IMG/VR virus record: IMGVR_UViG_3300045988_088194
Strand: one strand, 5' to 3'
Origin: a virus
Length of the DNA: 64,000 bases
The notes under the pieces are model-generated. The model was not told the origin of the DNA, did no database searches, and worked only from the letters and a program-made list of their open reading frames with translations. Made by a program: the position numbers and the translations under genes. Within the stretch, counting starts at the first letter, position 1; each line of letters begins with the position of its first letter. This document shows positions 47,306 through 63,384 of the stretch, in pieces.

Positions 47306-48985
47306 TTAGGACAATGTCCAAGAATCATTAGATGTGATAGTTAATGTCTTAGTCTCACCAGCTGCAATGAATGACATTGTATCAGGAGAGAGGTCAAGAG
47401 TTGAGCTTGAACCCTGCTGGTTGAATGTAATATCCTTAGTAGCAGTCTTACCACCTTCACCCTCAGCTGAGATTGTAACAACAAAGCCACCTCTTTCATG
47501 TGTTGTAGGGTTAAGACCAACAGTAACCTTACCAGTATTAGTCTCAAGTGAGAAGCCTTCCTTAGCAGTCTTAACTGTATAATCAGCAGAGAGCTGTACC
47601 TTATTGTCTGCTGGAGTAGCCTCAGTCCTTGTAGCACCAGAAGTGTAAGTAACTGTCTGCTTCATAGCAGGAACAATCTGGTAAGTCTCACCAGGGGCAT
47701 TCAAGGATACTGGAGTAGCCTGACCAATAGTTACCTCACCATAAGTTGCAGAGTTAGCTGCCTGGTATACAGTAACTGACTTAGTAGCAGTCTTATCACC
47801 TGCACCTGTTGCAGTGATTGTGATAACACCTGCTTCAGTCCTTGCAGAAACTGCTGTACCCTTAGAAGCTGCTGTAATAGCATCACTGTAGGTAACTGCA
47901 ATAGCGTCAAATACAGGACTTGTAGAACCAGTGTCATTAGAAATGTTAACTGTGGCACCTGAAGTGTAGCTAATTGTCTGAGTAGCAATAGCTCCCTCAC
48001 CAGACCATGTGATGTTAGATGAACCAATGGAACCGCCTGATGCTGGAATATCACTAACTGAAGGAACTCTACTTGAGAACTCAACATCACCGTAATTAAT
48101 TATGTTAGCATCCTGCTCTACAGTAGCTGTTACAGGGTCTGCGGCTACTCCATTTATTGTAAGATTAAGCCTAACCGTTGCAACGGTAGTTTTATCTGAA
48201 ACAACGGTACCTTTTGAAGGAACTGTTACTACTCCATTATCCTTGTTCACAGATACTCCGTCTGCTCCAGAAACTTTGACATACCCCAATGTTATAGGAT
48301 ATGTATCAGAAAATATTGGGCTTACAATAGTTCCTCCGTTTGTCTTTGATTCATTCCAACCCCATTGCTGAGTGATTTGTAATCTACTATCAGGCATCAC
48401 ATCTCTTCCAGATGCTTCTACTAATGGATATTCAAAGCCTGAAACTACTGGTTTACTGTAATTCTTAACACCTGCTGCTTGAGTAATTGTAACTTCTTCT
48501 GAATATACATTACCTGCTGCGTTCATAACTACAGATTTAAACTCTCTAGTAGATTCTGATTTATTCTCTGGAATAGTTACAGTAATAGTGAAGTCATATA
48601 TTGCAGATGCACCTGGGTCTCCATCTACAGCAGTGTCTTTAAAACCGTCCCAAGATTCATCAGTTACTCCTGCTACAGCAAGTTTAACTGGAAGGGAGCC
48701 ATCTGCTGTATCGAATCTACATACAAGATTAGCAGAGTTAGACCTACCTTGAATAGTTACATTCTGTCCAATAGCAACTGCTGAATAGGATACTGTTTCA
48801 ATAGTAATAACCTCAGCAGCACCTACCTGAGATACAGCTGTGGTATCAGTAGCTCCACCTGCTGTTGTACCAGTAATAGTACCCTCTCTGGCAACTCTAC
48901 CAGTGTAGGCAGCAGCAGTAATTTCACTTGAGCCATTCATGGAACCTTCTGTGGTTCCAATAGTAATCCATTTTGGTTTAGCCAT
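47306..48985 (-). CDS. Ig-like/BACON-domain repeat protein (559 aa); surface (head or tail) decoration candidate
   Basis: Thr/Ala/Gly/Val-rich beta repeats. Recurrent units ITATGAGDKTATKSVTVYQ / VTISAEGEGGKTATKDITFNQ. BACON-like ends: N-terminal KWITIGTTEGSMNGSSEIT...R..G.IT and C-terminal LDLSPDTMSFIAAGETKTLTITSNDSWTLS. Confidence 0.7.
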   Translation of the reverse strand: MAKPKWITIGTTEGSMNGSSEITAAAYTGRVAREGTITGTTAGGATDTTAVSQVGAAEVITIETVSYSAVAIGQNVTIQGRSNSANLVCRFDTADGSLPVKLAVAGVTDESWDGFKDTAVDGDPGASAIYDFTITVTIPENKSESTREFKSVVMNAAGNVYSEEVTITQAAGVKNYSKPVVSGFEYPLVEASGRDVMPDSRLQITQQWGWNESKTNGGTIVSPIFSDTYPITLGYVKVSGADGVSVNKDNGVVTVPSKGTVVSDKTTVATVRLNLTINGVAADPVTATVEQDANIINYGDVEFSSRVPSVSDIPASGGSIGSSNITWSGEGAIATQTISYTSGATVNISNDTGSTSPVFDAIAVTYSDAITAASKGTAVSARTEAGVITITATGAGDKTATKSVTVYQAANSATYGEVTIGQATPVSLNAPGETYQIVPAMKQTVTYTSGATRTEATPADNKVQLSADYTVKTAKEGFSLETNTGKVTVGLNPTTHERGGFVVTISAEGEGGKTATKDITFNQQGSSSTLDLSPDTMSFIAAGETKTLTITSNDSWTLS

Positions 48986-55019: not shown

Positions 55020-57275
55020 TTACTTTTTGCTAAATTTCATCAATCTATCATCATAATTAATCCTGAAGAAAGGGTCATTACCTAAATAATCAGCTGATAC
55101 CTTATCATCATCCCTCTTTATATCTCCCTGATACAGAATTACTTTCTCCTCTCTATACAGCATTACCATACCTAATGCCCTTACCCTATCCACATTTACA
55201 TCTGGATTAAACAGAATAAGCTCCTTAAGGAGAGCCCTATTTCTTATTCTATAGAGATTGAATATGGTAGTCTCAACTTGCTCACCATCTACTTCCTGTA
55301 CAACTGTTATTGGCTTAAGCAACCAATCCCTTATAAGAGTGTTAGCATAGTTGTTAATAGGAGCTGTTGCATTCACTCCTTTTGATTTATTACCCACTCC
55401 TATGACTTTTATAAGGTCCTTATCCTTAAGATATTCAGGAGTATCTGCAAGAAGATATGTGCAGTTCATTCTTGAGAAGTATGCAAATATACCTTTCTTA
55501 TTGTTCTCATAGAGGCACTTTGCATTATAGAACAGACAAAGTTTCCTAACCATCTCAAAGTTCTCATCAGCATGTGTTTTCCTTCCAGTATACTCTGCTA
55601 CTATCTGGTCTGTCCATAGGTCAAGAACAAAGGTTGAAGTGAGAGAAAGTGTAGCTGACTCATCATCATCAACAGGGTCATGACCTATAATATACCTGTC
55701 AGGAAATACCCTACCCTCTCTGTTCTTCTCTGGAAGATTGAATATCTCAAGTGCACCTTCTACCTTATTATCTTTTAGAGGGAAATCTCTGATTGGCAAA
55801 TCAGTAGTAGGACAGAACTCTACTTCTCCCTTGGCATTCTGTATCAGAGTACCTGTGTAGACATCATCAAACTCTCTTGGATTATTATCCAACTGATTAA
55901 GTCTTTCGTTCAGGTCTGTAACTGGAAACAGATTACCCTTTGTCTTAAGGATAGCTTCCTGTGGAGTTATAGGGATTTCAGCAATTCTCTTGGTTATTGA
56001 GTTGATGTCAGTAGAGTTATACTTTACAAGATACCTATCCCTAAGTATCTCAAGAAGAGCCTTTGTTACATCTGAATTTCCATCCTTATCATAACATTCT
56101 GCCCTATTCATATAACCAGGGAAGAAGAAAGTAAATAACTTTCTACCCTGACCCTCCTTATCATAGACATTTGGAAGGTCCTGCATATTATATCCAACAG
56201 GGTTATACATAATCTCCTGAGCTGAAGCAAAGTCAGACTCCTTATCTCCAGCAGTACCATACATGAAGATAAGACCATATATATTCTCTCCATCCTCCAC
56301 TGATGGTCTAAGAGTATTGTAAAGACCAAGAAGTCTTGGAAATGTACCAAACTCCTCTATAAGATAGAGTACACCTCTTGAACCTCTCAACTTAGACTCA
56401 TCATCCTTGGATGTGATGCCTATTACTGAGTTAAGAGTTCCCTTCTTAGTACCACTATCAAGGTCCTGGTAGCCCATAGTCCACTGAAGATTCTGCATGG
56501 TATTGACCAGTCTCTTTGAAGGGAACTGGGTATTCTGAGCACAGAAGTCTATATATCCAGAAAACATGTCAAGTATCTGGTTAGCACCTGACAGATACTT
56601 CTTTTCAGAGGCAGTTACAACACACTGTACTTTCTTGTTTACTTTAATAGATTCACCAAGTATGAACCTTTTTGCAAGAAGTGATGCACCAAAATAACTT
56701 TTTCCTTTGCCTCTTGAAGCTAGTTCAGCAGCATGATGCCCATTTTTTCTGGCTATATTAAGATAATGTGATAAATAATAATGACCCTCCCAGAATTTAG
56801 GAAAGTCTATAACCCTATTAGCTCTTCTTCCTCCTTTTTCATCCTTTCTATCCTGAAGAATAGGACAATAATTGAGGAAAAAATATAGGTCACCAGTTAT
56901 CCATTCACCATCAGAAGGTCTGACATAACCTTCATAGCATCTTCTTATTTCCTCTCTAATCCACTTACCAAACTCAGAATTTGGGTTTGGATTAGGCCTC
57001 AGGTCTGTAAATCTTCCAGTCTCCTTATAATGTATTGCTGTTGGTCTGAAGTAATCACTATCCTCTATTATATGGGGCTTTGTTATATCAATTATAATCT
57101 TGCCTTCTTCATCCCTTGGAAGGTCACAAGCCCTTGGTCTGTTTTCTGAAATCAGACTCCTTATGTATGGGGTGTTATTCACGAAGTCCCAAAATTGGTC
57201 CTGTATCTCTTGGGGTTCATTTTCCAGGTTGAGGAGTTCATAAGGAGTCTGGTATCTATTCCATCTTATATCCAT
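55020..57275 (-). CDS. terL: terminase large subunit
   Basis: Walker A ASRGKGKSYF, Walker B GVLYLIEEFG, coupling motif MYGTAGD, and a C-terminal RNase H-like nuclease Asp cluster IIGHDPVDDD. Size 751 aa. Confidence 0.85.
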   Translation of the reverse strand: MDIRWNRYQTPYELLNLENEPQEIQDQFWDFVNNTPYIRSLISENRPRACDLPRDEEGKIIIDITKPHIIEDSDYFRPTAIHYKETGRFTDLRPNPNPNSEFGKWIREEIRRCYEGYVRPSDGEWITGDLYFFLNYCPILQDRKDEKGGRRANRVIDFPKFWEGHYYLSHYLNIARKNGHHAAELASRGKGKSYFGASLLAKRFILGESIKVNKKVQCVVTASEKKYLSGANQILDMFSGYIDFCAQNTQFPSKRLVNTMQNLQWTMGYQDLDSGTKKGTLNSVIGITSKDDESKLRGSRGVLYLIEEFGTFPRLLGLYNTLRPSVEDGENIYGLIFMYGTAGDKESDFASAQEIMYNPVGYNMQDLPNVYDKEGQGRKLFTFFFPGYMNRAECYDKDGNSDVTKALLEILRDRYLVKYNSTDINSITKRIAEIPITPQEAILKTKGNLFPVTDLNERLNQLDNNPREFDDVYTGTLIQNAKGEVEFCPTTDLPIRDFPLKDNKVEGALEIFNLPEKNREGRVFPDRYIIGHDPVDDDESATLSLTSTFVLDLWTDQIVAEYTGRKTHADENFEMVRKLCLFYNAKCLYENNKKGIFAYFSRMNCTYLLADTPEYLKDKDLIKVIGVGNKSKGVNATAPINNYANTLIRDWLLKPITVVQEVDGEQVETTIFNLYRIRNRALLKELILFNPDVNVDRVRALGMVMLYREEKVILYQGDIKRDDDKVSADYLGNDPFFRINYDDRLMKFSKK

Positions 57276-60214: not shown

Positions 60215-60233
60215 AGTATTGAATATTAATCAG

Positions 60234-60316
60234 TTGCGGGAGGGGGACTTGAACCCCCGAGGCTAAAGAGCAGGAGCTTATGAGACTCCCCAGATACCAA
60301 CTTCTGACATCCCGCA
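60234..60316 (-). tRNA. class II-like (long variable arm) tRNA with anticodon CAT
   Basis: Hand fold: acceptor TGCGGGA/TCCCGCA, D stem CAG/CTG, anticodon stem GGAGT/GCTCC, loop CTCATAA, 14-nt variable region with GCT/AGC stem, T arm GGGGG-TTCAAGT-CCCCC, discriminator A. Confidence 0.7.
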
Positions 60317-60326
60317 ATATTTATTG

Positions 60327-60398
60327 AGCCTTCTATTGGAATTGAACCAATATCTACTGATTACAAGTCAGTTATAATAACCTTTATACTAAGAAGGC
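60327..60398 (-). tRNA. tRNA-Thr (anticodon TGT)
   Basis: Acceptor GCCTTCT/AGAAGGC, anticodon stem ACTGA/TCAGT, loop CTTGTAA, T arm ATTGG-TTCAATT-CCAAT. Confidence 0.85.
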
Positions 60399-60442
60399 AA
60401 CAACACTCTTATAGTATGCTTATAAGCCTTAAGAGTTTATTG

Positions 60443-60525
60443 TGGGGATAGAGGGACTTGAACCCTCAAGAGACATGCTCATGGGTGTTTAAGACCCACA
60501 TGTTTACCAGTTTCATCATATCCCC
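60443..60525 (-). tRNA. tRNA-Leu (anticodon TAA), class II
   Basis: Acceptor GGGGATA/TATCCCC, anticodon stem TGGGT/ACCCA, loop CTTAAAC, long variable arm, T arm GAGGG-TTCAAGT-CCCTC, discriminator A. Confidence 0.9.
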
Positions 60526-60532
60526 AATCCTT

Positions 60533-60991
60533 TTAATAGCTTCTTGTTGAATCACAAAGTTCAAACAAGTACTTGTACTTCCATATGTTGTGAATGAAAG
60601 TCTCACACTCTGACCTCACTCCTGCATATTCCACTGAATCTGGAATTGATGAGTAGAATTTAAGGGTCAAGTTTTTTACCTCAAGAATGAACTCCATTGC
60701 ATTAAGAGTGTCACTCTCAGTTCCAACTATCTTGTTTGGAGCTATATGACCAAGTATTCCTTGCATCTCTTCTGCAAGAGAATCTTGATAGTCACTTAAA
60801 ATCTCAAGAAACTCATCCAGATATACATGAATATTCCTCTTTGGAGCTGCCCAGTGAAGATTCTTACATTTAGTCTTCCATCCTTCAAGTCTATTTATAA
60901 AACTTATAAAGAATGAGAAGGTATCTGGAGTCACATCTTTTGGTGCCTGACCAGGAGCTGGTATAGGGTCTAAAAGTAAATCTCCTATCAT
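60533..60991 (-). CDS. Dps/ferritin-like four-helix-bundle protein candidate (152 aa)
   Basis: KNLHWAAPKRNIHVYLDEFLEILSDYQDSLAEEMQGILG fits the Dps ferroxidase-region pattern (HW.v.G..F..lH..ldE.y.......D.iAER...lG). Confidence 0.5.
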   Translation of the reverse strand: MIGDLLLDPIPAPGQAPKDVTPDTFSFFISFINRLEGWKTKCKNLHWAAPKRNIHVYLDEFLEILSDYQDSLAEEMQGILGHIAPNKIVGTESDTLNAMEFILEVKNLTLKFYSSIPDSVEYAGVRSECETFIHNIWKYKYLFELCDSTRSY

Positions 60992-60999
60992 TTTCTTTG

Positions 61000-61031
61000 C
61001 AAATATAAGTATTTTATTTTAAACTTCCAAA
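61000..61031 (-). promoter_or_regulatory. Bacteroidota-type promoter candidate inside the tRNA array
   Basis: Minus strand reads TTTG-gaagtttaaaataaaatact-TATATTTG (full consensus). It ends only 8 nt before ATG 60991, implying a very short leader. Confidence 0.6.
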
Positions 61032-61051
61032 TAAAATTGTAAATTTTTTAG

Positions 61052-61125
61052 TGGAGACTGTGGGAGTTGAACCACACTTTTCTGGATTTTCAGTCCAGCA
61101 CATTTACCACTAATGTTAAATCTCC
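61052..61125 (-). tRNA. tRNA-Phe (anticodon GAA)
   Basis: Acceptor GGAGATT/AGTCTCC, D stem ACAT/ATGT, anticodon stem CTGGA/TCCAG, loop CTGAAAA, T arm TGTGG-TTCAACT-CCCAC. Confidence 0.9.
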
Positions 61126-61129
61126 AAAG

Positions 61130-61212
61130 TGGGAGTAAAAGGATTTGAACCTATTCAGTCTGAGACACCAGATTTACAGTCTGGCACACATCACCATCTG
61201 TGCAGTACTCCC
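61130..61212 (-). tRNA. tRNA-Tyr (anticodon GTA), class II
   Basis: Acceptor GGGAGTA/TACTCCC, anticodon stem CCAGA/TCTGG, loop CTGTAAA, 13-nt variable region, T loop TTCAAAT (one T-stem mismatch). Confidence 0.85.
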
Positions 61213-61286
61213 AGTATATATAGTGTTCAAGAAAGTTCTTTTAGAGTAAAAAGGGTTTATCTCTTAAATCAGCTATGGAAGCATAG

Positions 61287-61359
61287 ACTCCAGGGTAAGA
61301 ATTGAACTTACACAAAGTAGTTTTGCGGACTACTGCATTAACCTTTCTGCCACCTGGAG
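61287..61359 (-). tRNA. tRNA-Cys (anticodon GCA) with C at position 33
   Basis: Acceptor CTCCAGG/CCTGGAG, anticodon stem GTAGT/ACTAC, loop CCGCAAA, T arm GTAAG-TTCAATT-CTTAC, discriminator T (Cys-like). Confidence 0.7.
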
Positions 61360-61365
61360 AATCAG

Positions 61366-61438
61366 GGTGTCTTATTGGAGTTGAACCAACATCATCTTGA
61401 GCCACAATCAAGTGCTCTACCATTAAGCTAAAGACACC
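61366..61438 (-). tRNA. tRNA-His (anticodon GTG) with encoded G-1
   Basis: G-1 pairs with C73. Acceptor GTGTCTT/AAGACAC, anticodon stem CTTGA/TCAAG, loop TTGTGGC, T arm GTTGG-TTCAACT-CCAAT. Confidence 0.9.
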
Positions 61439-61440
61439 AG

Positions 61441-61513
61441 TGGGCAAGTAAGGACTTGAACCTTCATTTCCTGGGTATCAGCCAGGTTTCCTAACCAATT
61501 AGAAGACATGCCC
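61441..61513 (-). tRNA. tRNA-Ile (anticodon GAT)
   Basis: Acceptor GGGCATG/CTTGCCC (one mismatch), anticodon stem CCTGG/CCAGG, loop CTGATAC, T loop TTCAAGT. Confidence 0.75.
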
Positions 61514-61519
61514 ATTATG

Positions 61520-61592
61520 CAGATTCTTAAGGACTCAAACCCTAATCAAGGGTTTTGGAGACCCCTATGCTAACTAATTGCACCAAGAACCC
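61520..61592 (-). tRNA. tRNA-Trp (anticodon CCA)
   Basis: Acceptor GGGTTCT/AGAATCT (two G-T pairs), D stem GTGC/GCAT, anticodon stem GGGGT/ACCCT, loop CTCCAAA, T loop TTTGAGT (unusual), discriminator G. Confidence 0.75.
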
Positions 61593-61598
61593 AAGTGG

Positions 61599-61669
61599 CT
61601 GGGGTAGAAGGAATTGAACCTTCATCCACAGATTAACAGTCTGTTGCTTGACCTTCCAGCTATACCCCA
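61599..61669 (-). tRNA. tRNA-Asn (anticodon GTT)
   Basis: Acceptor TGGGGTA/TACCCCA (T1-A72 as in E. coli Asn), anticodon stem ACAGA/TCTGT, loop CTGTTAA, T arm GAAGG-TTCAATT-CCTTC, discriminator G. Confidence 0.85.
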
Positions 61670-61700
61670 GTTTCAACTAAAAAAAAACAAATGAGAAATG

Positions 61701-61772
61701 TGGACTCTTGGGGAATTGAACCCCAACTCTCTGCTTGCAAAGCAGAAGTGCTACCATTATCACTAAGAGCCC
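61701..61772 (-). tRNA. tRNA-Ala (anticodon TGC)
   Basis: Acceptor GGGCTCT/AGAGTCC with the G3-T70 wobble (Ala identity pair), anticodon stem TCTGC/GCAGA, loop TTTGCAA, T arm TGGGG-TTCAATT-CCCCA. Confidence 0.9.
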
Positions 61773-61776
61773 AAAG

Positions 61777-61850
61777 TAGGGAAGAAAGGACTCGAACCTT
61801 CATCTTCTACATCCCAAATGTAGCCAATTAACCAATTATTGTACTTCCCT
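61777..61850 (-). tRNA. tRNA-Pro (anticodon TGG)
   Basis: Acceptor AGGGAAG/CTTCCCT, D stem CAAT/ATTG, anticodon stem CTACA/TGTAG, loop TTTGGGA, T arm GAAGG-TTCGAGT-CCTTT. Confidence 0.85.
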
Positions 61851-61865
61851 ATAACAATCATATTG

Positions 61866-61951
61866 CGGAGAGCAATGTACTTGAAACATATCCCCCTAAG
61901 AGAACCTCATGTTTAGCAGACAGAGCCAGCAACCTTACTGGTTTACTCTCC
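61866..61951 (-). tRNA. tRNA-Ser (anticodon GCT), class II, imperfect
   Basis: Acceptor GGAGAGT/GCTCTCC, discriminator G, loop CTGCTAA, 17-nt variable region, T loop TTCAAGT. It has an anticodon-stem mismatch and an extra nucleotide before the D stem. Confidence 0.65.
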
Positions 61952-61968
61952 TTTATATCTCTATTATG

Positions 61969-62053
61969 CGGAAGAGTGAGGTCCTGCCCCCCATACCCCT
62001 CAGAGTACCCTTTGTTTTCAAGACAAGGCTGAGTCTCACTCAGTTACCCTTCC
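61969..62053 (-). tRNA. tRNA-Ser-like (anticodon TGA), class II, non-canonical D and T loops
   Basis: Acceptor GGAAGGG/CTCTTCC, discriminator G, loop CTTGAAA, variable-arm stem TACTC/GGGTA. However, the T loop reads GGCAGGA (no TTC) and the D loop lacks GG. Confidence 0.5.
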
Positions 62054-62059
62054 AATATG

Positions 62060-62133
62060 CAGGCTATATGGGATTTGAACCCATCTTCTCCACTGTGACA
62101 GAGTGGCATCTTCACCAAGCAGACCCATAGCCT
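62060..62133 (-). tRNA. tRNA-Asp (anticodon GTC)
   Basis: Acceptor AGGCTAT/ATAGCCT, anticodon stem CCACT/AGTGG, loop CTGTCAC, T arm ATGGG-TTCAAAT-CCCAT, discriminator G. Position 8 is G. Confidence 0.8.
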
Positions 62134-62137
62134 ATGA

Positions 62138-62210
62138 TACTCTCAATAGGACTTGAACCTAACATTTCTGCCTTGAAAGGGCAGCATCCTAACCTTTAGA
62201 TGATGAGAGT
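62138..62210 (-). tRNA. tRNA-Glu (anticodon TTC)
   Basis: Acceptor ACTCTCA/TGAGAGT, D stem ATCT/GGAT, anticodon stem CTGCC/GGCAG, loop CTTTCAA, T loop TTCAAGT. Confidence 0.8.
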
Positions 62211-62248
62211 ATAATAGTTGGTATTTCACAACTACCTTAATTAGTTTG

Positions 62249-62321
62249 TTGAAGGGGAAAGATTTGAACTTTCATCTACCTGTTTCAAAGACAGGAATGT
62301 TCACCGTTACACCACCCTTCA
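62249..62321 (-). tRNA. tRNA-Gln (anticodon TTG)
   Basis: Acceptor TGAAGGG/CCCTTCA, D stem GTGT/ACAT, anticodon stem CCTGT/ACAGG, loop CTTTGAA, T arm GAAAG-TTCAAAT-CTTTC. Confidence 0.85.
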
Positions 62322-62772: not shown

Positions 62773-63384
62773 TTATCTATCAGCAAAGGATATCTTATAT
62801 AAATCTACATAAATAGTTTCTTCTGTATTGACAACTGAAACTGCAATCCCAGTTTCATTTTGATAATCTATATATAGGTCAGAAGCAGGAAAGTCACTTG
62901 GGAAAAAGTCTATTCTTCCTGTTTCTGGAATAGAGCCAGAATATGAAGAAGTAGACTGCCCCAGAGGATTAGTCCATCTTATGACCAGAGATGGTGCATT
63001 CTTATCCCATCCATCATTAGGGTAAGTATCTGCAAGGTAGTTTACTACATCATGTATGTACTTTGCATCTATATTAAATTCTGCTGCGAATTCAAGAGTA
63101 GCACTGCCCTCCGTATGATATATTATCTCTGGATAAGATATCCCATAGTTCTGGCTAAAGGTAACATCATTTATAACTGAACTTACATCCTGAGATATCC
63201 TTACTGCCCCTACTATAGGGACACCTGCCTGTGCTATATTCAATGTGGCTTGTACTCCATTAGCAGTCCTTGCAACCATCTGAGATTTCCTCTCCCCTCC
63301 CATGTTTCCCATGGCTGAAATATTAACTGTTTCTACCCCTTCCGTGCCAGAGGTCTTGTCAAGTGTAATCCAATTAGGTTTCAT
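62773..63384 (-). CDS. BACON-like N-terminal domain protein (203 aa)
   Basis: MKPNWITLDKTSGTEGVETVNISAMGNMGGERKSQMVARTANGVQATLNIAQAG follows the BACON pattern (W.t....sG..g...v.i....N.g.eR.a.i.v......a.l.i.Q.g). Confidence 0.65.
   Translation of the reverse strand: MKPNWITLDKTSGTEGVETVNISAMGNMGGERKSQMVARTANGVQATLNIAQAGVPIVGAVRISQDVSSVINDVTFSQNYGISYPEIIYHTEGSATLEFAAEFNIDAKYIHDVVNYLADTYPNDGWDKNAPSLVIRWTNPLGQSTSSYSGSIPETGRIDFFPSDFPASDLYIDYQNETGIAVSVVNTEETIYVDLYKISFADR

What the first reader, a model, noticed from the sequence alone, without database searches (positions are those of the whole stretch)
60234..60316. Class II (long variable arm) tRNA carrying a CAU anticodon
This 83-nt gene has a clean cloverleaf. 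The anticodon loop CTCATAA is canonical apart from the anticodon itself, and a 14-nt variable region has its own GCT/AGC stem. The discriminator is A73. In bacteria CAU anticodons belong to class I tRNAs (initiator Met, elongator Met, lysidine-modified Ile2). Long-arm bodies belong to Leu, Ser and Tyr, and LeuRS and SerRS do not read the anticodon. A Leu- or Tyr-like body with CAU could therefore decode AUG, or AUA after C34 modification, with a non-cognate amino acid. It could also be a decoy for a host nuclease or modification enzyme.
Basis: partly seen in the sequence, partly recalled or inferred. Interest (0 to 1): 0.65.

Follow-up and report, generated by a model that had tools for sequence, protein, structure and literature searches.

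The report
Phage methionine tRNA with extra arm
The gene is a real, conserved phage tRNA that reads the methionine codon AUG but carries an extra arm that textbooks reserve for leucine, serine and tyrosine tRNAs; its stems look like a start-codon (initiator) methionine tRNA, not a leucine or tyrosine tRNA, so genetic-code rewiring is unlikely.

Summary
An 83-nt tRNA with anticodon CAU and a 14-nt variable region lies on the minus strand at 60234-60316. It is the last gene of a 15-tRNA array in a crAss-like Bacteroidales phage.

It is not a one-off. I found about 138 loci (94 distinct well-paired sequences) in viral contigs, metagenomes and tRNA arrays of Bacteroidota genomes. Covariation supports all five helices.

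The body is not Leu-, Ser- or Tyr-like. It has G15:C48 where the arrays' Leu tRNAs have A15:U48, it lacks G1:C72, and its extra stem has only 2-3 pairs.

The acceptor stem is initiator-like: G2:C71, C3:G70, G4:C69 and mostly A73. Pair 1:72 is never G:C and is mismatched in 39% of members. The window copy has U1:A72, A11:U24 and an au/GC/ug anticodon stem.

Best reading: it is charged with methionine by MetRS through CAU and can probably be formylated. It serves as the phage's AUG tRNA, in elongation, initiation or both. The choice between these is unresolved.

Recoding by LeuRS, SerRS or TyrRS is not supported. Ile2 (lysidine) is unlikely.

I found no published description. I rate it a new variant of a known kind.

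The parts
60234..60316 (-). the tRNA gene (83 nt, position 1 to discriminator A73); C74 is templated at 60233
   Evidence: ARAGORN; Rfam tRNA 41.4 bits; family model R1 98.3 bits
60310..60316 (-). acceptor stem 5' strand, U1 G2 C3 G4 G5 G6 A7
   Evidence: It pairs with 60235-60241. Pairs 2-7 are paired in at least 96% of 53 representatives, whereas 1:72 is unpaired in 21 of 53.
60307..60309 (-). three-nucleotide connector U8 G9 U (one more than the standard two)
   Evidence: Rfam alignment shows an insertion after position 9. It is also present in family members found with patterns that did not demand it.
60291..60306 (-). D arm: stem CAGA/UCUG (A11:U24) and canonical 8-nt loop A14 G15 U U G18 G19 U A21
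   Evidence: Pair 11:24 covaries: AU 30, UA 15, CG 5, GC 3.
60273..60289 (-). anticodon arm: stem GGAGU/GCUCC (29:41 A:U, 30:40 G:C, 31:39 U.G) and loop CUCAUAA
   Evidence: All five stem pairs show changes on both sides in the family; loop statistics.
60280..60282 (-). anticodon CAU
60259..60272 (-). 14-nt variable region: U, stem GCU, loop CUUU, stem AGC, then CUC (the last C is C48)
   Evidence: Stem pair 2 covaries (CG 48, UA 3, GC 2). The third pair forms in only 8 of 24 sequences that have it. Family variable-region length is 12-14 nt, with one 15-nt exception.
60242..60258 (-). T arm: GGGGG UUCAAGU CCCCC
   Evidence: Three of the five pairs covary.
60235..60241 (-). acceptor stem 3' strand, U66 C C C G70 C71 A72
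60233..62321 (-). the 15-gene tRNA array; the CAU tRNA is its last (3'-most) member and its only CAU tRNA
   Evidence: ARAGORN and Rfam. The array lies upstream of small ORFs and the large terminase gene at 55020-57275(-).

Best explanation
This is a methionine tRNA that decodes AUG. It belongs to a conserved lineage of extra-arm tRNA-Met genes carried in the tRNA arrays of phages of Bacteroidota and in tRNA arrays of some Bacteroidota genomes.

Inferred mechanism:
1. The host MetRS charges it with methionine through the CAU anticodon and A73.
2. Its acceptor stem carries the determinants read by methionyl-tRNA formyltransferase: weak U1:A72, G2:C71, C3:G70, G4:C69, A73, plus A11:U24. It can therefore probably be formylated and used at start codons.
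3. In this phage, 1:72 is a Watson-Crick pair, the anticodon stem is au/GC/ug rather than three G:C pairs, and A37 is kept. It is also the only CAU tRNA among 14 elongator tRNAs. It is therefore probably usable by EF-Tu in elongation as well.

In short, I read it as the phage's general-purpose AUG tRNA. The split between initiator and elongator use is unresolved.

The short extra hairpin and the extra connector nucleotide are conserved structural features. Their role is unknown. One guess is escape from a host factor that targets the ordinary Met or fMet tRNA.

Shown here: the gene, its fold, family conservation and covariation, and the presence or absence of identity nucleotides. Inferred: charging, formylation and ribosomal use.
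For: It is a real tRNA.

It belongs to a family.
- An exact 19-mer and two degenerate patterns found it in about 20 IMG/VR contigs.
- A family pattern found 13 real hits in genomes. Twelve are in named Bacteroidota and all lie in tRNA arrays.
- The same pattern found at least 119 metagenome loci.
- Parsing gave 94 distinct well-paired sequences.

Covariation on 53 representatives: 96.5% of cells are paired, against 42-55% when partners are slid. 14 of 24 pairs change on both sides.

Initiator-type acceptor stem. The 5' bases of positions 2-5 were fixed by the search pattern; their 3' partners were not.
- 1:72 is U:A 42, UxU 30, A:U 10, CxA 4, CxU 3, and G.U or U.G 5. It is never G:C.
- In 724 non-CAU tRNAs of the same loci, 1:72 is mismatched in 3.7% and G:C or C:G in 55%.
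- 2:71 is G:C in 93/94, 3:70 is C:G in 94/94, 4:69 is G:C in 91/94, and N73 is A in 85/94.
- Position 11 is a purine in 67% of the family, against 12% in the other tRNAs.
- These are the published Fmt determinants (PMC9976931, PMC5389676).

Other initiator-like signs.
- 19 of 94 members have the full three G:C pairs; one example is L089, with C1xA72.
- G30:C40 is present in 83/94.
- The best match of member L007 in 28 Gb of E. coli DNA is the initiator gene metY.
- Variants with G37, U38/C38 or C33 occur in 12/94. This argues that t6A37 and U33 are not strictly needed.

AUG rather than AUA.
- 39 family loci also carry tRNA-Ile(UAU), including L003, whose anticodon arm is identical to the window's.
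- About 22 loci carry a separate class I CAU tRNA whose best E. coli match is tRNA-Ile.

MetRS needs only CAU (PMC9976931).

Selection on the acceptor stem. The window has only 74 CpG in 64 kb (O/E 0.03), and 11 of its 15 tRNAs have none. This tRNA keeps three, two of them at C3pG4 and C69pG70.

Elongator-compatible traits.
- Members without G31:C39, such as the window copy, have a Watson-Crick 1:72 pair in 72%.
- In 29 of 43 family loci with at least 10 tRNAs, this is the only CAU tRNA.
- An E. coli initiator with a single base change acts as an elongator in vitro (Seong and RajBhandary 1987, listed as reference 404 in PMC9976931).
Against: - No expression, aminoacylation or modification data exist.
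- The window copy lacks two of the three initiator G:C pairs, and its 31:39 pair is U.G. Published natural variants keep purine:pyrimidine orientation (au/GC/gu; PMC5389676).
- Its 1:72 is a Watson-Crick pair, so strict initiator status is not shown.
- Some phages carry a canonical class I initiator as well (L008, L017, L145), and 23 loci carry a second class I initiator-like CAU tRNA. Eight loci carry a class I elongator-like Met tRNA. Reasoning by elimination therefore gives no consistent role.
- A nearest-neighbour comparison of the body, with anticodon loop and variable region removed, is ambiguous: Leu 35, class I initiator-like CAU 21, other long CAU 11 of 94.
- The window tRNA has no significant E. 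coli match of its own.
- AUA is the commonest Ile codon in the window (35 per 1000), and the array has no other candidate AUA reader. This keeps Ile2 alive.
- Several apparently conserved positions were imposed by my search patterns.
Confidence: 0.6

Rival explanations
1. Dedicated initiator only. The extra-arm tRNA is the phage's own formyl-methionine initiator. It enters the P site directly and is not used in elongation.
For: - 1:72 is never G:C and is mismatched in 39% of the family.
- The Fmt determinants are kept (PMC9976931).
- 19 of 94 members have three G:C pairs.
- In L003 the anticodon arm is identical to the window's but 1:72 is UxU. That array already has a class I G1:C72 Met tRNA and Ile(UAU).
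- Loop variants at positions 33, 37 and 38 are tolerated.
- CCA is templated in 35% of members, and in 55% of the G31:C39 type. This fits the reported high CCA templating of initiator genes (title of bioRxiv 10.1101/035220, listed; not read).
Against: - The window copy has a paired U1:A72 and an au/GC/ug anticodon stem.
- It is the sole CAU tRNA in most large arrays, which otherwise hold elongators.
- It co-occurs with canonical or class I initiator-like tRNAs in 23 loci.
Confidence: 0.15
2. tRNA-Ile2. TilS converts C34 to lysidine, IleRS charges the tRNA, and it reads the abundant AUA codons.
For: - AUA is the most used Ile codon in the window (669 of 1311 Ile codons, 35 per 1000), and the array has only Ile(GAU).
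- Many phage genes annotated as tRNA-Met are in fact Ile2 (own knowledge).
Against: - 39 family loci also carry Ile(UAU), and about 22 carry a separate class I CAU tRNA that best matches E. coli tRNA-Ile.
- The family has G4:C69 and G5:C68, whereas E. coli TilS uses C4:G69 and C5:G68 (own knowledge).
- 1:72 mismatches are common.
- G37 variants lack the t6A37 that bacterial IleRS needs (PMC9976931).
Confidence: 0.08
3. One reading: a class II body charged by LeuRS, TyrRS or SerRS, so that AUG (or AUA) is read as a non-cognate amino acid.
For: - The variable region is 12-14 nt, similar in length to that of the Leu tRNAs of the arrays (12-17 nt).
- A73 is present in the window copy.
- The D loop and T arm resemble Leu tRNAs enough that Leu is the top body match for 35 of 94 members.
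- LeuRS and SerRS ignore the anticodon (PMC9976931).
- Nematode nev-tRNAs are a precedent (PMC3333845).
Against: - The family has G15:C48, not the A15:U48 found in 44 of 45 array Leu tRNAs.
- The discriminator varies.
- There is no G1:C72 (Ser, Tyr), no G73 (Ser) and no U35 (Tyr).
- The extra stem has only 2-3 pairs.
- MetRS would charge any unmodified CAU tRNA (PMC9976931).
- The long ORFs of the window read normally.
Confidence: 0.03
4. A role outside ordinary decoding, or a counter-defence role. The altered shape could make it a decoy, or a nuclease-resistant replacement, for a host toxin that targets Met or fMet tRNA (for example VapC-type initiator tRNA nucleases). It could also be a handle for a phage protein.
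For: - Phage tRNAs have been proposed to escape anticodon nucleases, and VapC of enterics cuts initiator tRNA (PMC10264068).
- In 56 of 94 members position 39 is G rather than the initiator's C. Position 39 lies next to the VapC cleavage site (site location from own knowledge).
- The extra arm and connector are conserved without an obvious translational need.
- One chromosomal array sits next to a TIR-domain protein.
Against: This is purely circumstantial. No nuclease is known for Bacteroidota initiator tRNA. Full conservation of the aminoacylation and formylation determinants and of the T arm argues that the tRNA is used in translation. A resistant replacement would in any case be a special case of the best explanation.
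Confidence: 0.1

Closest known systems
Bacterial initiator tRNA-fMet (for example E. coli metY and metZWV)
   Same: It shares the CAU anticodon, the CUCAUAA loop, G2:C71, C3:G70, G4:C69 and A73. It also shares a weak or absent 1:72 pair, purine 11:pyrimidine 24, and G30:C40. Some family members have all three G:C pairs and C1xA72. Member L007 finds metY as its best E. coli match.
   Different: All described initiators are class I, with a 5-nt variable loop and a 2-nt connector. This family has a 12-14 nt variable region with a hairpin and a 3-nt connector. The window copy has a paired U1:A72 and an au/GC/ug anticodon stem.
Elongator tRNA-Met
   Same: It shares the CAU anticodon, A37, A73, G2:C71 and C3:G70. 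The window's 19-nt anticodon arm is identical to that of a class I GGCGAGC-type CAU tRNA in L004. It is the only CAU tRNA in most large arrays.
   Different: Elongators normally have a strong 1:72 pair and pyrimidine 11:purine 24, and they are class I.
Class II tRNAs (Leu, Ser and Tyr in bacteria)
   Same: The variable region is longer than 10 nt and has its own stem. The D loop and T arm resemble those of Leu tRNAs.
   Different: The Levitt pair is G15:C48 rather than A15:U48. The D stem has 4 pairs with a canonical 8-nt loop. The extra stem has only 2-3 pairs. It lacks G1:C72, G73 and U35. The anticodon is CAU.
Nematode nev-tRNAs (class II tRNAs with non-Leu, non-Ser anticodons that are charged with leucine; PMC3333845)
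   Same: A long-arm tRNA whose anticodon does not belong to Leu, Ser or Tyr.
   Different: nev-tRNAs keep a Leu-type body and Leu identity. Here the identity nucleotides are Met/fMet-type.
allo-tRNAs and tRNA-Sec-like tRNAs (PMC5389517)
   Same: They are non-standard cloverleaves with a long variable arm, found in bacteria and phages. A weak tRNA-Sec hit appeared here.
   Different: Those have 8/4, 9/3 or 8/5 acceptor/T branches and a long D stem with a 4-nt loop. This tRNA has the standard 7/5 branch.
tRNA-Ile2 (lysidine-modified CAU)
   Same: It shares the CAU anticodon and the CUCAUAA loop, and the phage is AT-rich with heavy AUA use.
   Different: The acceptor stem differs. It co-occurs with Ile(UAU) and with Ile2-like class I tRNAs. 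Pair 1:72 is often mismatched.
The single dual-role tRNA-Met of animal mitochondria, and E. coli tRNA-fMet mutants with a 1:72 base pair (own knowledge; Seong and RajBhandary 1987, listed as reference 404 in PMC9976931)
   Same: One Met tRNA with a weak 1:72 pair can serve in both initiation (after formylation) and elongation.
   Different: Those are class I or reduced tRNAs. Dual use is only inferred here.

Membership tests
tRNA (Rfam RF00005) | Cloverleaf with conserved D- and T-loop nucleotides, scoring above the gathering threshold | tested here: met
   41.4 bits against a gathering score of 29; ARAGORN; covariation in all helices
Class II (long-arm) tRNA architecture | Variable region longer than about 10 nt that forms its own stem-loop | tested here: met
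   The window copy has 14 nt with a GCU/AGC stem. The family has 12-14 nt (one 15-nt exception). The second stem pair covaries, while the third forms in only 8 of 24.
tRNA-Leu (bacterial) | Discriminator A73 | tested here: inconclusive
   A73 is present in the window copy. The family has A 85, U 8, C 1. A73 is also the Met/fMet discriminator.
tRNA-Leu (bacterial) | Levitt pair A15:U48 (E. coli identity element; PMC9976931) | tested here: not met
   The window and family have G15 and C48 (the variable region ends in CUC in 92/94). In contrast, 44 of 45 class II Leu tRNAs of the same arrays have A14 A15:U48.
tRNA-Ser (bacterial) | G1:C72, G2:C71, G73 and a long extra arm (PMC9976931) | tested here: not met
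   It has U1:A72 and A73, and the extra stem has 2-3 pairs. The Ser tRNAs of the arrays have variable regions of 16-26 nt.
tRNA-Tyr (bacterial) | A73, U35 in the anticodon, and G1:C72 (PMC9976931) | tested here: not met
   The anticodon is CAU (A35) and 1:72 is U:A.
Methionine acceptor (MetRS substrate) | Anticodon CAU with unmodified C34, which is sufficient for E. coli MetRS (PMC9976931) | tested here: met
   CAU lies at 60280-60282. The modification state of C34 cannot be tested with these tools.
Bacterial initiator tRNA-fMet | No Watson-Crick pair at 1:72, the major Fmt determinant | tested here: inconclusive
   The window copy has U1:A72, a weak pair but still a pair. In the family 1:72 is mismatched in 37/94, G.U or U.G in 5, A:U or U:A in 52, and G:C in 0. 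Other tRNAs of the same loci show 3.7% mismatch and 55% G:C or C:G.
Bacterial initiator tRNA-fMet | G2:C71, C3:G70, G4:C69 and A73, the minor Fmt determinants (PMC9976931) | tested here: met
   All are present in the window copy. The 3' partners were not imposed by the search pattern and pair in 91-94 of 94. These positions are kept despite genome-wide CpG loss.
Bacterial initiator tRNA-fMet | Purine 11:pyrimidine 24 | tested here: met
   The window copy has A11:U24. In the family the pair is purine:pyrimidine in 63/94, whereas position 11 is a purine in only 12% of other tRNAs.
Bacterial initiator tRNA-fMet | Three consecutive G:C pairs at 29:41, 30:40 and 31:39 | tested here: not met
   The window copy has A:U, G:C and U.G. 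In the family all three are G:C in 19/94, and G30:C40 is present in 83/94. Natural au/GC/gu variants are known in mycoplasmas and alpha-proteobacteria (PMC5389676).
Bacterial initiator tRNA-fMet | Class I body (5-nt variable loop, 2-nt connector) | tested here: not met
   It has a 14-nt variable region and a 3-nt connector.
Bacterial initiator tRNA-fMet | Formylation by Fmt and P-site binding with IF2 and IF3 | not testable with these tools
   Needs biochemistry.
Elongator tRNA-Met | Stable 1:72 pair for EF-Tu, and A37 for t6A | tested here: inconclusive
   The window copy has U1:A72 and A37, which is compatible. The family has 39% mismatches at 1:72 and 6 members with G37.
tRNA-Ile2 (lysidine) | It is the array's AUA decoder; acceptor pairs C4:G69 and C5:G68 in E. 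coli (own knowledge); A37 for t6A | tested here: not met
   It has G4:C69 and G5:C68. 39 family loci also carry Ile(UAU), and about 22 carry an Ile2-like class I tRNA. Lysidine itself cannot be tested here.
tRNA-Sec and allo-tRNA | 8/5, 8/4 or 9/3 acceptor/T branch, a long D stem with a 4-nt loop, and a UCA or other anticodon (PMC5389517) | tested here: not met
   It has a 7/5 branch and an 8-nt D loop. The tRNA-Sec hit is 24.9 bits against a gathering score of 47. A possible eighth pair (-1:73) is not conserved.

The most novel reading that the evidence does not exclude
The extra-arm CAU tRNAs may be a previously unrecognised structural class of formylatable initiator tRNA, or of dual initiator/elongator tRNA. 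That would make them the first class II-type tRNA-fMet. They spread on phage and chromosomal tRNA arrays in Bacteroidota. The extra hairpin and connector nucleotide would let the tRNA keep working with MetRS, Fmt, IF2 and the ribosome while escaping a host factor that disables the ordinary initiator during infection.
Probability: 0.3. Interest if true: 0.75.

Novelty: new variant of a known kind. Interest (0 to 1): 0.55.

Why it matters
Textbook bacterial tRNA biology reserves the long variable arm for Leu, Ser, Tyr and Sec tRNAs. Every described Met, fMet and Ile2 tRNA is class I. Here there is a conserved, covarying family that breaks that rule, with at least 130 loci across gut, rumen, freshwater, soil and marine samples.

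The family also mixes initiator-type and elongator-type features in graded combinations. This gives a natural series of variants for several questions. Which nucleotides really decide formylation, EF-Tu rejection and P-site selection? Can one tRNA serve both roles in a bacterial system? Why do phages carry their own AUG tRNA when codon bias cannot be the reason?

There is also a practical point. Annotation pipelines will label these genes simply "tRNA-Met", or may flag them as anomalies. Knowing the family prevents false calls of genetic-code change in crAss-like and other Bacteroidota phages.

Tried and rejected
1. tRNA-Sec or allo-tRNA. The 24.9-bit tRNA-Sec hit in the first Rfam run was a filter artefact. 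The narrow run gave tRNA at 41.4 bits, and the branch is 7/5.

2. An 8-bp acceptor stem using base -1 and base 73. The pairing is not conserved across members.

3. BLAST of the window tRNA. There was no match in INPHARED phages. In E. coli there was only an insignificant 24-nt T-arm match to tRNA-Leu. A family-consensus query found only class I relatives in Lak megaphages of Prevotella.

4. Assigning the role by elimination from the other CAU tRNAs in each array. The result is inconsistent. The partner is sometimes a canonical initiator, sometimes an elongator-like Met, sometimes an Ile2-like tRNA, often a second initiator-like tRNA, and often nothing.

5. Nearest-neighbour classification of the body. 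With the variable arm kept, class II tRNAs win for trivial length reasons. With it removed, the result is split between Leu and initiator-like CAU tRNAs.

6. Prophage origin of the chromosomal arrays. Flanking ORFs in L046 and L037 matched ordinary or defence-like cellular protein families, and none matched a phage family. Only 8 kb was seen at each locus.

7. Sigma-70 promoter scan. The count was at chance level, and the scan is not suited to Bacteroidota or crAss transcription.

8. Literature. Eight full-text searches found no description of a long-arm Met or fMet tRNA in bacteria or phages. Subscription journals are not covered.
Full report

Yes. ARAGORN reports tRNA-Met(cat) at 60233-60316 on the minus strand. 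It is the last of 15 tRNA genes at 60233-62321.

Read on the minus strand, the sequence is UGCGGGA UGU CAGA AGUUGGUA UCUG G GGAGU CUCAUAA GCUCC UGCUCUUUAGCCUC GGGGG UUCAAGU CCCCC UCCCGCA A. The minimum-free-energy fold is the cloverleaf with an extra hairpin: -33.4 kcal/mol, z = -2.56.

Rfam's tRNA model scores it at 41.4 bits, against a gathering score of 29, when the region is searched alone. In the 4.5-kb search the filters dropped this match, and only a sub-threshold tRNA-Sec hit of 24.9 bits showed. That hit is an artefact.

- The gene is on the minus strand.
- There are three connector nucleotides (UGU) between the acceptor and D stems, instead of two.
- Pair 1:72 is U:A.
- C74 is templated.

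**2. Context**

The window is a crAss-like phage of Bacteroidales.
- It has giant ORFs of 3507 and 1885 aa.
- It has a large terminase and a weak, sub-threshold match to the BACON domain next to the array.
- It shares only a 49-nt DNA match with Bacteroides phages DAC15 and DAC17.

The array is co-oriented with the downstream small ORFs and the packaging genes. ARAGORN found no other CAU tRNA in the 64 kb, and the family model found no second copy of this gene.

**3. It is a family, not an oddity**

- The exact 19-nt anticodon arm found six IMG/VR contigs.
- Two degenerate patterns found about twenty contigs from unrelated samples, of 5 to 209 kb.
- A family pattern scanned over one genome per species gave 21 matches. 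Thirteen of them are tRNAs. Twelve are in named Bacteroidota (Sphingobacteriales, Cytophagales, Saprospiraceae including the isolate Flavilitoribacter nigricans). One is in an unclassified MAG. All thirteen lie inside tRNA arrays.
- The eight non-tRNA matches equal the number I estimated would arise by chance.
- Parsing all loci gave 139 copies in 138 loci, 97 distinct sequences, and 94 with at least 19 of the 20 scored stem pairs formed (pair 1:72 not scored).

On 53 representatives less than 88% identical to each other, the cloverleaf with extra stem is strongly supported:
- 96.5% of cells are paired, against 42-55% when partners are slid.
- 14 of 24 pairs change on both sides.
- No shuffle in 500 reaches the observed covariation.

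The extra stem is short. It has two solid pairs, and the second covaries (C:G, U:A, G:C). A third pair forms in a minority, including the window copy. The loop is GNRA or 3-4 nt. The region is always flanked by U on the 5' side and CUC on the 3' side.

One caveat applies to conservation claims. Positions 2-5, 8-10, 12-15, 32, 34-36 and 52-56 were imposed by my main pattern, so they cannot be counted as evidence of conservation. The earlier patterns, which did not impose them, found the same features.

**4. What kind of tRNA is the body?**

*Not Leu, Ser or Tyr.*
- In the same arrays, 44 of 45 class II Leu tRNAs have A14 A15:U48 and A73. These are the E. coli LeuRS determinants (PMC9976931).
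- The CAU family has G15 and C48.
- Ser tRNAs of the arrays have variable regions of 16-26 nt and mostly G73.
- Bacterial Ser and Tyr tRNAs use G1:C72, and Tyr uses U35 (PMC9976931).
- The family has none of these. Its discriminator varies: A 85, U 8, C 1.

*The acceptor stem is that of a bacterial initiator.*
- Pair 1:72 is U:A 42, UxU 30, A:U 10, CxA 4, CxU 3, and G.U or U.G 5. It is never G:C.
- In the covariation table, 1:72 is unpaired in 21 of 53 sequences, while pairs 2-7 are at least 96% paired.
- Among 724 other tRNAs from the same loci, 1:72 is mismatched in 3.7% and G:C or C:G in 55%. Position 11 is a purine in 12% of these, against 67% in the family.
- G2:C71, C3:G70, G4:C69 and A73 are the minor determinants of methionyl-tRNA formyltransferase. 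An unpaired 1:72 is the major one, and purine 11:pyrimidine 24 also contributes (PMC9976931, PMC5389676).
- 19 members also have the three G:C pairs of initiators. One example is L089, with C1xA72 and CCGGG/CCCGG. G30:C40, the pair reported as most critical (PMC5389676), is present in 83 of 94.
- Member L007 finds the initiator gene metY as its best match in 28 Gb of E. coli genomes.
- Loop variants with G37, U38/C38 or C33 occur in 12 members. This is hard to reconcile with a strict A-site tRNA for an A-starting codon, which needs t6A37.

*An independent sign of selection.*
- The window has only 74 CpG in 64 kb (O/E 0.03).
- Eleven of its 15 tRNA genes have none.
- This tRNA has three, two of which are C3pG4 and C69pG70.
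- In the relative L006, C3 has become U, giving U3.G70.

**5. AUG or AUA?**

AUA is the commonest Ile codon in the window (35 per 1000), and the array otherwise has only Ile(GAU). Ile2 therefore had to be considered. Four points argue against it:
- 39 family loci also carry tRNA-Ile(UAU). One is L003, where it sits next to an extra-arm tRNA whose anticodon arm is identical to the window's.
- About 22 loci carry a separate class I CAU tRNA with a C-rich acceptor stem (positions 4-6). One representative of this group (from L069/L071) was queried and best matches E. coli tRNA-Ile.
- The family has G4:C69 and G5:C68.
- Some members have G37.

**6. Initiator, elongator or both?**

This is not settled. 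The family splits into two flavours.

| Feature | Members with G31:C39 (33) | Other members (61, including the window copy) |
|---|---|---|
| 1:72 mismatched | 73% | 21% |
| 1:72 U:A or A:U | 24% | 72% |
| N73 = A | 100% | 85% |
| CCA templated | 55% | 25% |

The association between 31:39 and 1:72 gives Fisher p = 1.8e-6. This is not corrected for phylogeny.

The window copy has the following features:
- U1:A72, A73, A11:U24 and A37.
- An au/GC/ug anticodon stem.
- An anticodon arm identical to that of a class I GGCGAGC-type CAU tRNA in L004.
- It is the only CAU tRNA among 14 elongators. That is also the case in 29 of 43 family loci with at least 10 tRNAs.

Chromosomal arrays in Cytophagales and Sphingobacteriales place it among Phe, Tyr, Ile, Asn and Lys tRNAs. 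That is the set of amino acids favoured in AT-rich genes, which fits an elongator role.

On the other side:
- L003 has the same anticodon arm with a UxU mismatch at 1:72, plus a separate G1:C72 Met tRNA.
- 23 loci pair the family with a second, class I, initiator-like tRNA.
- Three loci pair it with a canonical initiator.

An E. coli initiator mutant with a single base change works as an elongator in vitro (Seong and RajBhandary 1987, listed as reference 404 in PMC9976931). That this change is C1 to U1, giving a U1:A72 pair, and that weak 1:72 pairs stay formylatable, is from my own knowledge.

The most economical reading is a general-purpose AUG tRNA that is formylatable and also acceptable to EF-Tu.

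**7. Role of the extra arm and connector**

Their role is unknown. They are conserved in shape but not in loop sequence. Other initiator-like CAU tRNAs with different long arms exist:
- L024 and L094: 88 nt, with a 6-bp stem.
- L064: 83 nt.

Arm gain therefore seems recurrent in this lineage. Escape from a host factor that targets the normal Met or fMet tRNA is a reasonable guess, given the proposal that phage tRNAs evade tRNA nucleases (PMC10264068). I have no direct evidence for it.

**8. Comparison with known kinds, and novelty**

It works like a Met or fMet tRNA. It fails membership as a canonical initiator on three points: the three G:C pairs, the class I body, and strictly the 1:72 mismatch. 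It fails as a Leu, Ser or Tyr tRNA on identity nucleotides. It fails as tRNA-Sec or allo-tRNA on branch geometry.

Eight full-text searches found no description of a long-arm Met or fMet tRNA in bacteria or phages. Subscription literature was not searchable.

I rate it a new variant of a known kind.

**9. Verdict**

- The recoding interpretation is not supported.
- The gene is a conserved extra-arm methionine tRNA with initiator-type acceptor features.
- Interest is moderate to high for tRNA and phage-translation specialists.
- The decisive work is biochemical.

Noticed in passing
window 1-64000; also L001, L002, L070, L079, L097, L116, L133, L150, L161: CpG is avoided almost completely. The window has only 74 CG dinucleotides in 64 kb (O/E 0.03, while GC O/E is 0.84). 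It has one CGN arginine codon and one TCG codon in 19,114 codons. Close relatives show O/E of 0.04-0.10, whereas other family-bearing contigs have a median of 0.87. This may reflect avoidance of a CpG-directed restriction or modification system.
   Followed up: partly
window 47905-48712, inside ORF 47306-48985(-): Twelve of the window's 74 CpGs cluster within 800 bases of one ORF. This could be a recently acquired segment or a locally constrained one.
   Followed up: no
window, all long ORFs: AUA is the commonest isoleucine codon (669 of 1311, 35 per 1000), yet the 15-tRNA array has no clear AUA reader. CUU dominates the leucine codons, but the only Leu tRNA has anticodon UAA. The tRNA set therefore does not simply mirror codon use.
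   Followed up: partly
window 62798-63124(-): There is a weak tmRNA-like Rfam match (25.8 bits, gathering score 47). It lies inside ORF 62773-63384(-), which has a weak BACON-domain match, so it is probably spurious.
   Followed up: partly
window 60533-60991(-): A 152-aa ORF sits inside the tRNA array, between tRNA-Leu and tRNA-Phe. It has only weak matches, to phrog_858 and to DUF5856 below the Pfam cut-off.
   Followed up: partly
L024 9121-9208(+), L094 7493-7580(-), L064 1645-1727(-): These are other CAU tRNAs with initiator-like UGCGG acceptor stems but differently built long arms. Two are 88 nt with a 6-bp stem and a GGAA loop. One is 83 nt with a GC-GAAA-GC hairpin and a different D arm. 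They sit in the same contigs as the main family.
   Followed up: partly
L167 1501-1574 (Prevotella phage Lak-B5, MK250024.1): This Lak megaphage carries a class I CAU tRNA with the same UGCGGGA acceptor strand and a U1xU72 mismatch. The U1 initiator-like acceptor is therefore shared by class I and extra-arm forms in phages of Bacteroidota.
   Followed up: partly
L077 (28 tRNAs) and L034 1873-1948(-): Arrays that hold the family also hold suppressor-type tRNAs: anticodon UCA (called SeC) in L077 and CUA (called Pyl) in L034. This hints at stop-codon reassignment in those phages or elements.
   Followed up: no
L037 2953-6318(+), beside the tRNA array at 1359-2713: In a 7.7-Mb Sphingobacteriales contig, the array lies next to a 1121-aa LRR-Roc-COR-TIR protein, which looks like a defence protein. 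Flanks of the array in Flavilitoribacter (L046) matched ordinary cellular protein families. No prophage genes were seen within the 8 kb.
   Followed up: partly
L004 841-913(+): This is a 73-nt class I CAU tRNA (GGCGAGC..., with an unusual D arm). Its 19-nt anticodon arm is identical to that of the window's extra-arm tRNA.
   Followed up: no
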